64,000 nucleotides of DNA from Escherichia coli O157:H7 (GTDB lineage: Bacteria; Pseudomonadota; Gammaproteobacteria; Enterobacterales; Enterobacteriaceae): NCBI RefSeq assembly GCF_013167455.1, contig NZ_CP038328.1. One strand, given 5' to 3'. This document shows positions 15,001 to 19,780 of the stretch, one piece after another. Within the stretch, counting starts at the first letter, position 1; each line of letters opens with the position of its first letter. The position numbers were made by a program.

Positions 15001-18000
15001 CAGAGACGGACTCGGACGTAAAAAGGTGTTTTGCCATATTTAATATCACCTAAAGAGAATTTGGTTAGCTCAAACTGTTGTGTGGATTTTCTGTGGTAGC
15101 GGATCCTACCACGACTCTGCAGGTTAAAAACACTGGCAGTCTGAGTGTTAATCGGTATGGATGGATTAACATCTGGATGGCTATTTTAGGTCAATTCTTC
15201 ACCCGATTTCCACTTTTTTTTGAATCGTGTCTCATTCTGTTAAAAACGTGGCTGGAAATTTTTCCTGACAATGCCGGCATTCTGCGTATTTATCTTTTGC
15301 AATTTTCTGCCATTGTGGGGTATAAAACGCGGCGCGCGGCTTAAATAAAAAGCACACGACGTTTCTTTCGTGTTGCCACTTCCAGCCGGGTTGAAATCAG
15401 AGTTTTGGCTTGTGGGTTCGTCTTAACAGGCGGCCGTGGAGGTGATACGAAATAATGAACCGTTGTCTGCTGCTTAACCTGTCTCACCGTTCTGGTGAAG
15501 ATTCGTTCCCCGCACTCTGCATCTCTGCTTTGCATACCTGCCGATGTTATACCCATCTCGGCGCTTCTCAGGATTCAAGAGCTGGTTACAGTTACTGAGG
15601 ACTGAACAAGGGCGCTCTTGTAAAAACAAGAGTTTTCTCGTGGTTTCGCCGAACTGTCACACTTACGTTCGGTTATGTGCTTAATAATGTTATGAAAAAG
15701 AAACCGGTTGCGCAGTTGGAGCGTCAGCATTCACTGCTGGAAAATCCATGTGCTTATGGGTTGTTATCGCAGTTCCAGGCTGCGATAGTCGTTAACTGTT
15801 TTACACTTAATAAAATAATTTGAGGTTCGCTATGTCTGACGACATGTCTATGGGTTTGCCTTCGTCAGCGGGCGAACACGGTGTACTACGCTCCATGCAG
15901 GAGGTTGCAATGAGCTCCCAGGAAGCCAGCAAGATGCTGCGTACTTACAATATTGCCTGGTGGGGCAATAACTACTATGACGTTAACGAGCTGGGCCACA
16001 TCAGCGTGTGCCCGGACCCGGACGTCCCGGAAGCTCGCGTCGATCTCGCGCAGTTAGTGAAAACTCGTGAAGCACAGGGTCAGCGTCTGCCTGCACTGTT
16101 CTGTTTCCCACAGATCCTGCAGCACCGTTTGCGTTCCATTAACGCCGCGTTCAAACGTGCGCGGGAATCCTACGGCTATAACGGCGATTACTTCCTTGTT
16201 TATCCGATCAAAGTTAACCAGCACCGTCGCGTGATTGAGTCCCTGATTCATTCGGGCGAACCGCTGGGTCTGGAAGCCGGTTCCAAAGCCGAGTTGATGG
16301 CAGTGCTGGCACATGCTGGCATGACCCGTAGCGTCATCGTCTGCAATGGTTATAAAGACCGCGAATATATCCGCCTGGCATTAATTGGCGAGAAGATGGG
16401 GCACAAGGTCTATCTGGTCATTGAGAAGATGTCAGAAATCGCCATTGTGCTGGATGAAGCAGAACGTCTGAATGTCGTTCCTCGTCTGGGCGTGCGTGCA
16501 CGTCTGGCTTCGCAGGGCTCCGGTAAATGGCAGTCCTCCGGCGGGGAAAAATCGAAGTTCGGCCTGGCGGCGACTCAGGTACTGCAACTGGTTGAAACCC
16601 TACGTGAAGCCGGGCGTCTCGACAGCCTGCAACTACTGCACTTCCACCTCGGTTCGCAGATGGCGAATATTCGCGATATCGCGACAGGCGTTCGTGAATC
16701 CGCGCGTTTCTATGTTGAGCTGCACAAGCTGGGCGTCAATATTCAGTGCTTCGACGTCGGCGGCGGTCTGGGCGTGGATTATGAAGGTACTCGTTCGCAG
16801 TCCGACTGTTCGGTGAACTACGGCCTCAATGAATATGCCAACAACATCATCTGGGCGATTGGTGATGCGTGTGAAGAAAACGGTCTGCCGCATCCGACGG
16901 TAATCACCGAATCGGGTCGTGCAGTGACTGCGCATCACACCGTGCTGGTGTCTAATATCATCGGCGTGGAACGTAACGAATACACGGTGCCGACCGCGCC
17001 TGCAGAAGATGCGCCGCGCGCGCTGCAAAGCATGTGGGAAACCTGGCAGGAGATGCACGAACCGGGAACTCGCCGTTCTCTGCGTGAATGGTTACACGAC
17101 AGTCAGATGGATCTGCACGACATTCATATCGGCTACTCTTCCGGCACCTTTAGCCTGCAAGAACGTGCATGGGCTGAGCAGCTTTATTTGAGCATGTGCC
17201 ATGAAGTGCAAAAGCAGCTGGATCCGCAAAACCGTGCTCATCGTCCGATTATCGACGAGCTGCAGGAACGTATGGCGGACAAAATGTACGTCAACTTCTC
17301 GCTGTTCCAGTCGATGCCGGATGCGTGGGGGATCGACCAGTTGTTCCCGGTTCTGCCGCTGGAAGGGCTGGATCAAGTGCCGGAACGCCGCGCTGTGCTG
17401 CTGGATATTACCTGTGACTCTGACGGTGCTATCGACCACTATATCGATGGTGATGGTATTGCCACGACAATGCCTATGCCGGAGTACGATCCAGAGAATC
17501 CGCCGATGCTCGGTTTCTTTATGGTCGGCGCATATCAGGAGATCCTCGGCAACATGCACAACCTGTTCGGTGATACCGAAGCGGTTGACGTGTTCGTCTT
17601 CCCTGACGGTAGTGTAGAAGTGGAACTGTCTGACGAAGGCGATACCGTGGCGGACATGCTGCAATATGTACAGCTCGATCCGAAAACGCTGTTAACTCAG
17701 TTCCGTGATCAAGTGAAGAAAACCGATCTTGATGCTGAACTGCAACAACAGTTCCTTGAAGAGTTCGAGGCAGGTTTGTACGGTTATACCTATCTTGAAG
17801 ATGAATAATTAAGATTATTCTGCTGGCGGGTCGATTTATTTACGTAAATCGGTCCGCTTTCTTTTTATATATTCTTAAAAATAATTTAGCTGCTTTTCTT
17901 ATTAAATAATCTCCCTACAATCGCTGCATTAATTAAATGCAGAGGGAACGGTTATGAAAAAATGGAAAGTACGCAGCGCGTTGGTGGCATTAATCGTGCT

Positions 18001-19780
18001 GCTGGCCGGTTGTTCCAGTAATGCGCAGTATAATAGCAGTGCATCGGGCAATGTCGGCACCGCCTGGGGTGGGGATGTGCACTCAACGGTTCAGGGCGTA
18101 TCTGCTGAGCGAGCCTGGCGCGATCCGGCGGAGATGATCGTTATTAGTTATTCGACTAATGTTCCTTCCGGCTACGATCGCGTTTATAGCATTCGTATTA
18201 ACGAACTGGAATATGCTATTCGCGATGGTAATTTTAATTCTCTACCTATTACGCGTGTTTATGATTCATCTAATAATGAACCACGCTATATTGTCCATGC
18301 CAGAGTCGGAATGAATTATCAATTATATGTCCGTAATTACAGTCGTAACACCAACTACGAGATCGTTGCTACGGTTGATGGCCTGGATGTGCTGAACGGC
18401 AAGCAAGGTTCGCTGAATAACAACGGCTATATTGTGAATGCCGGAGATTCGTTAGCGATTAAAGGATTCCGCAAAGATAAACATACCGAAGCGGCTTTTC
18501 AGTTCGCCAACGTTGCTGATTCCTACGCAGCCAATTCGGCGCAAGGCGATGTGCGTAATACCGGTGTAATCGGCTTTGCCGCCTTTGAATTACAAGGCCA
18601 GGCGCAAAACGCGCTGCCACCGTGCTCTGGACAAGCCTTTCCGGCAGATAACAATGGCTATGCGCCGCCACCGTGTCGGAAATAGCAACCTCGCTTGATG
18701 CCTCGCCCATTTAAGGCGATAATTAGCACAAACTTGTGTTTCGCAAATCCAACCCTTCCTCGTCGGGCCTAACGACGCGGAAGGGTTTTTTTATATCGAC
18801 TTTGTAATAGGAGTCCATCCATGAGCACCTTAGGTCATCAATACGATAACTCACTGGTTTCCAACGCCTTTGGTTTTTTGCGCCTGCCGATGAACTTCCA
18901 GCCGTATGACAGCGATGCTGACTGGGTGATTACTGGTGTGCCGTTCGATATGGCCACTTCTGGTCGTGCGGGGGGACGCCACGGTCCGGCAGCTATCCGT
19001 CAGGTTTCGACGAATCTGGCCTGGGAACACAACCGCTTCCCGTGGAATTTCGACATGCGTGAGCGTCTGAACGTCGTGGACTGTGGTGATCTGGTATATG
19101 CTTTCGGCGATGCCCGTGAGATGAGCGAGAAGCTGCAGGCGCACGCCGAGAAGCTGCTGGCTGCCGGTAAGCGTATGCTCTCCTTCGGTGGTGACCACTT
19201 TGTTACGCTGCCGCTGCTGCGTGCTCATGCGAAGCATTTCGGCAAAATGGCGCTGGTACACTTTGACGCCCACACCGATACCTACGCGAACGGTTGTGAA
19301 TTTGACCACGGCACCATGTTCTATACCGCGCCGAAAGAAGGTCTGATCGACCCGAATCATTCCGTGCAGATTGGTATTCGTACCGAATTTGATAAAGACA
19401 ACGGCTTTACCGTGCTGGACGCCTGCCAGGTGAACGATCGCAGCGTGGATGACGTTATCGCCCAGGTGAAACAAATTGTGGGTGATATGCCGGTTTACCT
19501 GACCTTTGATATCGACTGCCTGGATCCTGCATTTGCGCCGGGAACCGGTACGCCGGTAATTGGCGGTCTGACCTCCGATCGCGCTATTAAACTGGTACGC
19601 GGCCTGAAAGATCTCAACATCGTTGGGATGGACGTAGTGGAAGTGGCTCCGGCATACGATCAGTCGGAAATCACCGCTCTGGCAGCGGCAACGCTGGCGC
19701 TGGAAATGCTGTATATTCAGGCGGCGAAAAAGGGCGAGTAAGCACCAGATGCGATGCGCACGGGTAAAACGTGCCATTAA

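What the first reader, a model, noticed from the sequence alone, without database searches (positions are those of the whole stretch)
17954..18685. Uncharacterised lipoprotein gene between speA and speB
A 243-aa ORF with a textbook lipoprotein signal (LLAGC lipobox) and an N/Y/S-rich mature domain sits in the 1 kb between speA and speB. It has its own AT-rich upstream region and a strong terminator. By K-12 gene numbering as I recall it (speB and speA consecutive), no gene is annotated here, so this is an accessory insertion splitting the polyamine genes. Part of the gene (about 18150-18340) is noticeably AT-rich compared with its neighbours.
Basis: partly seen in the sequence, partly recalled or inferred. 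Interest (0 to 1): 0.5.

Follow-up and report, generated by a model that had tools for sequence, protein, structure and literature searches.

The report
Ancestral uncharacterised lipoprotein gene, lost in K-12
The ORF between speA and speB is a real lipoprotein gene of unknown function that RefSeq already annotates; most enterobacteria carry it at this site, so K-12 lost it rather than O157 gaining it.

Summary
Window 17954-18685 (+) encodes a 243-aa protein with a classic lipoprotein signal (LLAG-C20, Ser at +2). It lies in the 1,012-bp speA-speB spacer of a sequence identical to E. coli O157:H7.

The interpretation as an accessory insertion does not hold.
- The gene lies directly downstream of speA in at least 11 genera of Enterobacteriaceae, and between speA and speB in all of them except Salmonella. 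This includes five other Escherichia lineages.
- It is present in 3,542 of 5,426 complete E. coli genomes.
- It is under purifying selection (dN/dS 0.06-0.11).
- Its GC3 is lower than its neighbours' in every genus compared, so low GC is an old trait.
- K-12-type genomes (1,863) carry one near-invariant 137-bp spacer lacking the gene. K-12 is the derived state.

The most likely function is an outer-membrane-anchored beta-sandwich binding or scaffold protein. This is inferred.

Interest is low to moderate.

The parts
17826..17868 (+). Intrinsic terminator of speA (hairpin 17826-17857 followed by a T-run). It separates speA from the lipoprotein gene and is absent from the K-12-type spacer.
   Evidence: Terminator scan and inverted repeat I6. 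The RNAalifold consensus on 12 species has 14 pairs, 8 of them with compensatory changes.
17869..17953 (+). AT-rich upstream region of the lipoprotein gene. It holds a conserved -10-like TAnnnT (TACAAT, 17916-17921) with no sigma-70 -35, an Escherichia-specific palindrome CTGCATTAATTAAATGCAG (17924-17942), and a GAGGG Shine-Dalgarno sequence (17942-17946).
   Evidence: The overlapping window 17800-17999 is 35% GC. The TAnnnT is aligned in 13 of 14 species. No promoter reached 9 of 12 matches on the + strand here. The predicted fold pairs UCUCCCU with the Shine-Dalgarno sequence. Promoter function is inferred, not shown.
17954..18010 (+). Signal peptide (aa 1-19): a basic n-region MKKWKVR, a hydrophobic h-region, and the lipobox L-A-G preceding Cys20.
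   Evidence: Translation. Weak NCBIfam and PHROG hits cover only this N-terminal lipoprotein signal region.
18011..18013 (+). Codon of Cys20, the predicted lipidated first residue of the mature protein. The +2 residue is Ser, not Asp, so the E. coli +2 rule predicts outer-membrane sorting.
   Evidence: Sequence. Cys20 is conserved in at least 90% of 27 homologues. Lipidation and localisation are inferred from the established lipobox and +2 rules.
18050..18598 (+). All-beta globular domain (aa 33-215). The most conserved stretch is YEIVATVDGLDVLNGKxGS...GY...I.GFRK...AAF.F...YAAN...GD.RN.GVIG.A.FEL. The AT-rich segment 18150-18340 encodes aa 66-129, which lie in the protein's poorly conserved N-terminal half.
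18599..18685 (+). C-terminal tail (aa 216-243) and stop codon. It carries the family-wide motif AFPxD...YAPPP. Cys224 and Cys241 are conserved in the enterobacterial sequences of the alignment and are a possible disulfide.
   Evidence: Alignments. Low pLDDT in this region. The disulfide is inferred.
18695..18723 (+). Promoter-like site for speB (TTGATG-N17-GATAAT). This is not part of the lipoprotein gene. A motif-level counterpart exists in the K-12 spacer.
   Evidence: Promoter scan. CTTGAxG...GATAAT is conserved in Escherichia, Citrobacter, Kluyvera, Klebsiella and Enterobacter.
18751..18794 (+). Hairpin AACCCTTCCTCGTCGGGCCTAACGACGCGGAAGGG followed by seven T, 27 nt before the speB ATG. It probably terminates the lipoprotein transcript. 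It is shared with K-12 and nearly invariant across genera.
   Evidence: Inverted repeat I3. Fold z-score -3.9. Identical in the K-12 type. Conserved in 14 of 17 species.

Best explanation
Window 17954-18685 is a genuine, separately transcribed gene for a lipoprotein of a large uncharacterised proteobacterial family.

**Predicted protein.**
- The precursor has a lipoprotein (signal peptidase II-type) signal peptide.
- Cys20 would be lipidated. Because residue +2 is Ser, the Lol pathway is predicted to send the protein to the outer membrane.
- A short flexible linker follows. In distant homologues it is 60-130 disordered residues.
- It tethers a compact all-beta domain that ends in a conserved proline-rich tail (FPxD...YAPPP).

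**Most likely function.** It is a non-enzymatic binding or scaffolding module of the cell envelope. It acts independently of arginine decarboxylase and agmatinase.

**Origin.** The position between speA and speB is ancestral in Enterobacteriaceae. The K-12-type E. coli lineage lost about 875 bp, comprising the speA terminator, the upstream region and the whole gene. It also carries a replaced 67-nt stretch upstream of the conserved speB hairpin.

**What is shown:** the gene is real, it has the lipoprotein signal, it is syntenic across genera, K-12 lacks it, and it has no conserved neighbour outside its own clade.

**What is inferred:** lipidation, outer-membrane location, and the binding or scaffold role.
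For: - **Gene and signal.**; the RefSeq CDS is identical.
- **Purifying selection.** dN/dS is 0.059-0.108 against Salmonella, K. aerogenes and Kluyvera.
- **Family size.** 2,902 clusters at 50% identity score E<=1e-3 and 853 score E<=1e-10. Cys20 is at least 90% conserved.
- **Synteny.** The gene follows speA in at least 11 genera, and speB follows it in all but Salmonella.
- **Distribution in E. coli.** 3,542 genomes carry the gene. 1,863 carry a single near-identical K-12-type junction.
- **Old low-GC trait.** GC3 is 0.43-0.51 for the gene against 0.61-0.74 for speA and speB in all five genera.
- **Separate transcription unit.** The speA terminator shows 8 compensatory pairs, and a conserved -10-like element lies upstream of the gene.
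- **No link to polyamine genes elsewhere.** The gene lies in the his operon in Comamonadaceae, beside recO in Gilliamella, and beside other genes elsewhere. No neighbour family is shared beyond one clade.
- **Tethering.** Long homologues differ only in having disordered linkers after the lipobox.
Against: - Expression, lipidation, localisation and binding partners were not tested. No transcript or proteome evidence was found.
- No promoter passes a sigma-70 consensus scan.
- Several invariant polar residues (R53, N128, S130, E136, T140, D142, D145, R173) could form a catalytic or metal-binding site, so an enzymatic role is not excluded.
- The fold matches are to domains that are themselves of unknown function.
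- The K-12 spacer is not a clean deletion product. Its 67 nt are only 55% identical to the Escherichia allele, so the loss event is not fully explained.
- K. spallanzanii (75% identity) and K. aerogenes (61%) are discordant, which hints at some exchange between genera.
Confidence: 0.6

Rival explanations
1. The gene is a horizontally acquired accessory insertion that split an originally adjacent speA-speB pair in O157-like strains.
For: - It is absent from K-12 and BL21-type genomes, whose spacer is 137 bp.
- Its GC is 48.8% and its GC3 0.47, against 54-55% and 0.61-0.62 for speA and speB.
- One stretch is 36.6% GC.
- The Klebsiella orthologues show discordant identities.
Against: - The same position is occupied in at least 11 enterobacterial genera and in E. 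albertii, E. whittamii and cryptic Escherichia clades.
- The downstream spacer is 89-100% identical across Escherichia.
- There are no flanking direct repeats, integrase or IS elements.
- Low GC3 is shared by the orthologues in the four other genera compared.
- The gene-less haplotype is a single near-invariant allele.
Confidence: 0.05
2. The lipoprotein functions in polyamine physiology, for example in sensing, export or uptake of agmatine or putrescine, or in envelope binding of polyamines. That role would explain why it is kept between speA and speB.
For: - Its position beside speA has persisted in at least 11 genera.
- It has a conserved acidic cluster (E136, D142, D145) that could bind polycations.
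Against: - A conserved, covarying terminator separates it from speA, and a promoter-like site for speB follows it.
- Outside Enterobacteriaceae none of about 60 loci has speA or speB within 5 kb, and the neighbours differ by clade.
- In Salmonella a sugar-acid island separates it from speB.
- From general knowledge, K-12, which lacks the gene, makes polyamines normally.
- Gene order is broadly conserved in Enterobacteriaceae anyway, so synteny within the family is weak evidence.
Confidence: 0.1
3. It is an envelope enzyme of a new family, such as a hydrolase or a metal-dependent enzyme, rather than a binding module.
For: Invariant polar residues cluster in the conserved core (R53, N128, S130, E136, T140, D142, D145, R173, K174, N202).
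Against: - It matches no enzyme family in Pfam, NCBIfam, PADLOC, PHROGs or PDB.
- The nearest folds are small beta-sandwich interaction modules.
- No neighbour supplies a substrate-related context.
Confidence: 0.15
4. The ORF is spurious or a decaying pseudogene with no function.
For: - It has no known function.
- One third of E. coli genomes have lost it.
- Truncated forms exist in the protein collections. Clusters of 174 and 181 aa and AlphaFold DB entries of the same lengths from Shigella dysenteriae are examples.
Against: - dN/dS is 0.06-0.11.
- It is full length in all sampled carrier genomes.
- The family is wide, with invariant motifs.
- The fold prediction is confident.
Confidence: 0.02

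Closest known systems
RefSeq WP_000758914.1 'lipoprotein' and its orthologues. By neighbour numbering these should be Sakai ECs3813 and CFT073 c3523, and, from memory of LT2 gene order, probably Salmonella STM3085.
Fungal DUF7918 domain proteins and related fungal proteins fused to RING- or GRF-type domains
   Different: - No Pfam family, DUF7918 included, matches at E<=10, either for this protein or at E<=0.1 for 23 homologues.
- Sequence identity is 9-17%.
- They are eukaryotic and are not described as lipoproteins. The bacterial family adds a lipobox, a linker and a YAPPP tail.
- DUF7918 itself has no known function.
Small beta-sandwich interaction modules: MATH/TRAF, PCuAC copper chaperones, and DUF1425/YcfL-type lipoproteins
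   Different: The scores are at noise level for sandwiches. Only 65-93 residues align at 2-15% identity, and no sequence match exists. The copper-binding motif of PCuAC was not examined.

Membership tests
Bacterial lipoproteins (substrates of Lgt, LspA and Lnt) | N-terminal signal peptide with a basic n-region and a hydrophobic h-region | tested here: met
   MKKWKVR followed by SALVALIVLLAG.
Bacterial lipoproteins (substrates of Lgt, LspA and Lnt) | Lipobox [LVI][ASTVI][GAS]C at the end of the signal peptide, with a conserved Cys | tested here: met
   L-A-G-C20. Cys20 is conserved in at least 90% of 27 homologues.
Bacterial lipoproteins (substrates of Lgt, LspA and Lnt) | Experimental lipidation (palmitate labelling or globomycin sensitivity) and membrane localisation | not testable with these tools
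   The Ser at +2 predicts Lol-dependent outer-membrane sorting by the E. coli +2 rule. This is an inference only.
Pfam DUF7918 | Significant match to the Pfam profile | tested here: not met
   No Pfam family matches at E<=10 for this protein, and none at E<=0.1 for 23 homologues apart from a borderline lipid-attachment-site hit.
Pfam DUF7918 | The same three-dimensional fold | tested here: inconclusive
Horizontally acquired genomic islet | Absence from the same site in sister species and genera | tested here: not met
   The gene is present downstream of speA in at least 11 genera and in five other Escherichia lineages.
Horizontally acquired genomic islet | Flanking direct repeats, att sites or mobility genes | tested here: not met
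   Only short chance repeats were found, none bracketing the segment. The spacer holds no integrase or IS ORF.
Horizontally acquired genomic islet | Composition that is atypical for the host but not for the orthologues | tested here: not met
   GC3 is lower than that of speA and speB in all five genera, so the trait is old.
speA-speB polyamine operon member | Co-transcription with speA or speB | tested here: inconclusive
   A covarying terminator follows speA. A promoter-like site and a hairpin lie between the gene and speB. No transcript data are available.
speA-speB polyamine operon member | Association with polyamine genes across distant taxa | tested here: not met
   None of about 60 loci outside Enterobacteriaceae has speA or speB within 5 kb. 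Neighbour families are clade-specific.

The most novel reading that the evidence does not exclude
The family could be a so far unrecognised, widespread envelope factor of Proteobacteria, a bacterial counterpart of the fungal DUF7918 fold. It would have escaped study because K-12 lacks it. Its conserved acidic pocket and YAPPP tail would mediate a specific interaction, for example with polycations such as agmatine or putrescine, or with an envelope machine. Its loss, together with the replaced speB upstream segment in K-12-type strains, would alter speB regulation.
Probability: 0.1. Interest if true: 0.55.

Novelty: already known. Interest (0 to 1): 0.27.

Why it matters
- **Blind spot of K-12-centred genomics.** About two thirds of E. 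coli genomes and many other Enterobacteriaceae carry this conserved envelope lipoprotein, including O157:H7 and very probably CFT073, judging by locus-tag numbering. The reference strain lacks it. The family has no Pfam entry, no solved structure and no publication in the searched library.
- **Correct polarity.** Establishing that K-12 lost the gene prevents it from being listed as a pathogen-specific islet.
- **Limits.** Beyond that it is an ordinary hypothetical lipoprotein. Nothing here points to an unusual mechanism.

Tried and rejected
- **Family libraries.** Pfam, NCBIfam, PADLOC and PHROGs gave no hits, or hits only to the signal-peptide or N-terminal region.
- **PDB by sequence and profile**. 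Nothing significant was found.
- **Foldseek against AFDB50**. It returned only unannotated family members.
- **Domain fusions in 22 longer homologues**. They add only disordered linkers. One protein has the core module twice.
- **Guilt by association** over about 65 loci outside Enterobacteriaceae. No neighbour is shared across clades.
- **Literature by locus tag or accession** and the supplements of two O157 omics papers. No mention was found. One look-up returned nothing because the protein was not on record.
- **Source of the K-12-type 67-nt spacer** among all fetched loci. No match was found.
- **Rfam over 15000-21000**. Nothing lies in the speA-speB spacer except a sub-threshold chance hit on the speA terminator.
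- **Sigma-70 promoter scan upstream of the gene**. No site was found on the + strand.
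Full report
**1. Observation**

It runs 17954-18685 on the + strand, starts with ATG, encodes 243 aa, and begins MKKWKVRSALVALIVLLAGC. A GAGGG Shine-Dalgarno sequence lies 7 nt upstream.

The surrounding genes are:
- metK (-) at 13883-15049
- the small yqgB ORF
- speA (+), ending at 17808
- the ORF
- speB (+) at 18821-19741
- loiP (-)
- tktA (+)

The speA-speB spacer is 1,012 bp.

The mature protein is rich in Asn (10.7%), Tyr (6.2%) and Ser (8.9%). The stretch 18150-18340 is 36.6% GC, against 52-55% for the rest of the ORF. The window spanning the upstream region is about 35% GC.

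The 1,201 bases around the gene are 100% identical to E. coli O157:H7 genomes. RefSeq annotates exactly this CDS there as 'lipoprotein', WP_000758914.1.

**2. Real gene or chance ORF**

Orthologues of 53-75% identity occur in Salmonella, Citrobacter, Klebsiella, Kluyvera and other genera. Relatives of about 40% identity occur in Variovorax, Comamonas, Paracoccus, Neisseria, Kingella, Providencia, Gilliamella and others.

An exhaustive search found 2,902 clusters at 50% identity with E<=1e-3, and 853 with E<=1e-10.

Pairwise dN/dS is 0.059 against Salmonella, 0.092 against K. aerogenes and 0.108 against Kluyvera, with dS saturated.

The lipobox cysteine is conserved in at least 90% of a diverse alignment. 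Several motifs are invariant, including E136, T140-V146 (TVDGLDV), G171-F172-R173, F184, A237 and P240.

The gene is real and under constraint.

**3. Insertion or loss**

The gene is present in 3,542 of 5,426 complete E. coli genomes. Another 1,863 genomes carry a K-12-type junction with a 137-bp spacer. These include O16:H48 K-12 derivatives and BL21. That junction is almost always 100% identical between genomes. About 20 genomes have neither.

| Taxon | Arrangement |
|---|---|
| K. aerogenes | metK-yqgB-speA-lipoprotein-speB |
| C. freundii | same |
| Kluyvera sichuanensis | same |
| C. gillenii, Citrobacter sp. FP75, C. portucalensis, K. georgiana, K. spallanzanii, Enterobacter sp. BIGb0383, Intestinirhabdus, Phytobacter, Kosakonia, Entomohabitans | speA-lipoprotein-speB |
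| E. whittamii, two cryptic Escherichia clades, the GTDB E. coli representative | speA-lipoprotein-speB |
| E. albertii | lipoprotein-speB; the contig is cut within the lipoprotein gene |
| Salmonella | gene follows speA; an unrelated GntR/dehydrogenase island then precedes speB |

Nothing in the spacer resembles a mobile element, and no repeats bracket it.

The gene's GC3 is 0.43-0.51 in all five genera compared. Its neighbours speA and speB have GC3 of 0.61-0.74. The low GC is therefore an old property of the gene and not a sign of recent import.

The parsimonious reading is ancestral presence followed by loss in the K-12-type lineage.

**4. Anatomy of the locus**

- *After speA.* A hairpin and T-run lie at 17826-17868. 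Across 12 species the consensus has 14 pairs, 8 of them with compensatory changes. This is a functional terminator that insulates the lipoprotein gene from speA.
- *Upstream of the ORF.* A -10-like TAnnnT (TACAAT, 17916-17921) is aligned in 13 of 14 species. No sigma-70 -35 accompanies it. A weak or factor-dependent promoter is inferred.
- *After the ORF.* There is a promoter-like CTTGAxG-N17-GATAAT at 18695-18723.
- *Before speB.* The hairpin AACCCTTCCTCGTCGGGCCTAACGACGCGGAAGGG plus seven T lies at 18751-18794, 27 nt before the speB ATG.

It is identical in the K-12 spacer and nearly invariant in 14 of 17 species. It therefore belongs to the conserved region upstream of speB rather than to an inserted cassette.

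**5. An unexplained detail**

Relative to the window, the K-12 type lacks about 875 bp (942 nt against 67 nt between the speA stop and the hairpin).

The remaining 67 nt are only 55% identical to the 65 nt that follow the lipoprotein stop codon. That O157-type stretch is 89-100% identical across the genus Escherichia and 56-69% identical to most other genera compared.

The flanking speA and speB sequences differ by only about 2% between the two E. coli haplotypes. The 67 nt match nothing else that I fetched.

The K-12 state is therefore a deletion plus a replacement, or an import from an unidentified donor. It is not a clean excision.

**6. What the protein is**

It matches no family in Pfam, NCBIfam, PADLOC or PHROGs beyond the signal-peptide or N-terminal region. 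It has no PDB relative by sequence or by profile.

AlphaFold2 with a 27-sequence alignment gives a confident model made only of beta strands. Mean pLDDT is 80.8 and pTM 0.79. The signal peptide, linker and C-terminal tail are disordered.

| Library | Best result |
|---|---|
| AFDB50 (Foldseek) | only unannotated 'lipoprotein' family members |

Longer homologues merely insert 60-130 disordered Pro/Ala/Ser-rich residues between the lipobox and the domain. One protein has the core module twice.

All members end in a conserved FPxD...YAPPP tail. The enterobacterial sequences in the alignment add a Cys224/Cys241 pair.

**7. Function**

Context gives no handle on function.
- In Comamonadaceae the gene lies inside the his operon, between hisD and hisC.
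- In Gilliamella it lies next to recO.
- Elsewhere it lies next to sucAB, an aldehyde dehydrogenase, or DUF1161.

No neighbour family is shared beyond one family-level clade. A polyamine role therefore has no support beyond synteny within Enterobacteriaceae, where gene order is conserved generally.

My best inference combines the lipobox, the Ser at +2, the tether, the sandwich fold and the proline-rich tail. It points to an outer-membrane-anchored binding or scaffold module of the envelope. An enzymatic role is not excluded, because several polar residues are invariant.

**8. Novelty and literature**

The gene is already annotated in thousands of genomes. By neighbour numbering it should be Sakai ECs3813 and CFT073 c3523.

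Searches by locus tag and accession found no paper that discusses it, and two O157 omics supplements do not mention it.

It is an already-known hypothetical gene. The useful corrections are the polarity of the event (loss in K-12, not gain in O157) and the reassignment of the 'terminator' to the conserved speB upstream region.

Interest is low to moderate.

Noticed in passing
window 18695-18794: A conserved promoter-like CTTGAxG-N17-GATAAT is followed within about 25 nt by a nearly invariant hairpin plus seven T. The loop is invariant too, in 14 of 17 enterobacterial species. The hairpin ends only 27 nt before the speB ATG. A promoter followed at once by a terminator looks like an attenuator or leader for speB. 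No Rfam family matches it.
   Followed up: partly
L001:1610-1676 (K-12-type spacer) versus window 18686-18750: The K-12-type 67-nt stretch is only 55% identical to the allele shared by all other Escherichia, although flanking genes differ by about 2%. It matches nothing in any fetched locus. Its origin is unexplained; replacement or import from an unknown donor is possible.
   Followed up: partly
window 17910-17947: An Escherichia-specific perfect palindrome CTGCATTAATTAAATGCAG lies directly 5' of the lipoprotein Shine-Dalgarno sequence. UCUCCCU (17910-17916) can pair with the Shine-Dalgarno AGAGGGA in the predicted fold. This could be an operator or a translational control element, or chance.
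   Followed up: no
window 19771-19925: Sub-threshold Rfam hits to naRNA4 (53.5 and 37.7 bits, against a gathering score of 59.5) lie on the - strand just downstream of speB. They probably reflect REP/BIME-type repeats, by my reading of this family.
   Followed up: no
L007-L009, about 6001-7187; also L045-L097: In Variovorax, Comamonas and relatives the homologue sits inside the histidine operon. It is tightly packed between hisD and hisC, together with an unannotated ORF of about 115 aa. This is a second case of the lipoprotein lodged within a core biosynthetic gene cluster.
   Followed up: partly
P0222 (465 aa): One distant homologue has no lipobox Cys and carries two tandem copies of the conserved core. 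Each copy is followed by the GTGFGE...S...V.F strand motif, which precedes the core in the E. coli protein. This suggests the module can be permuted or duplicated.
   Followed up: no
L027 and L028: A contig labelled Chryseobacterium sp. 18061 and one labelled Citrobacter sp. 18056 give identical hits (64% identity, same coordinates). This points to probable contamination or mislabelling. The copy there is not next to speA or speB, so it is a second genomic location within an enterobacterium.
   Followed up: no
L010:6001-6759: A Trabulsiella guamensis family member only 40% identical to the query lies between DUF1161 and UPF0257 genes. This suggests a distant second lineage of the family within Enterobacteriaceae. 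Whether Trabulsiella also carries the copy next to speA was not checked.
   Followed up: no
L033, about 3440-5000: In Entomohabitans teleogrylli about 1.5 kb of extra sequence separates speA from the lipoprotein gene. I did not examine it.
   Followed up: no
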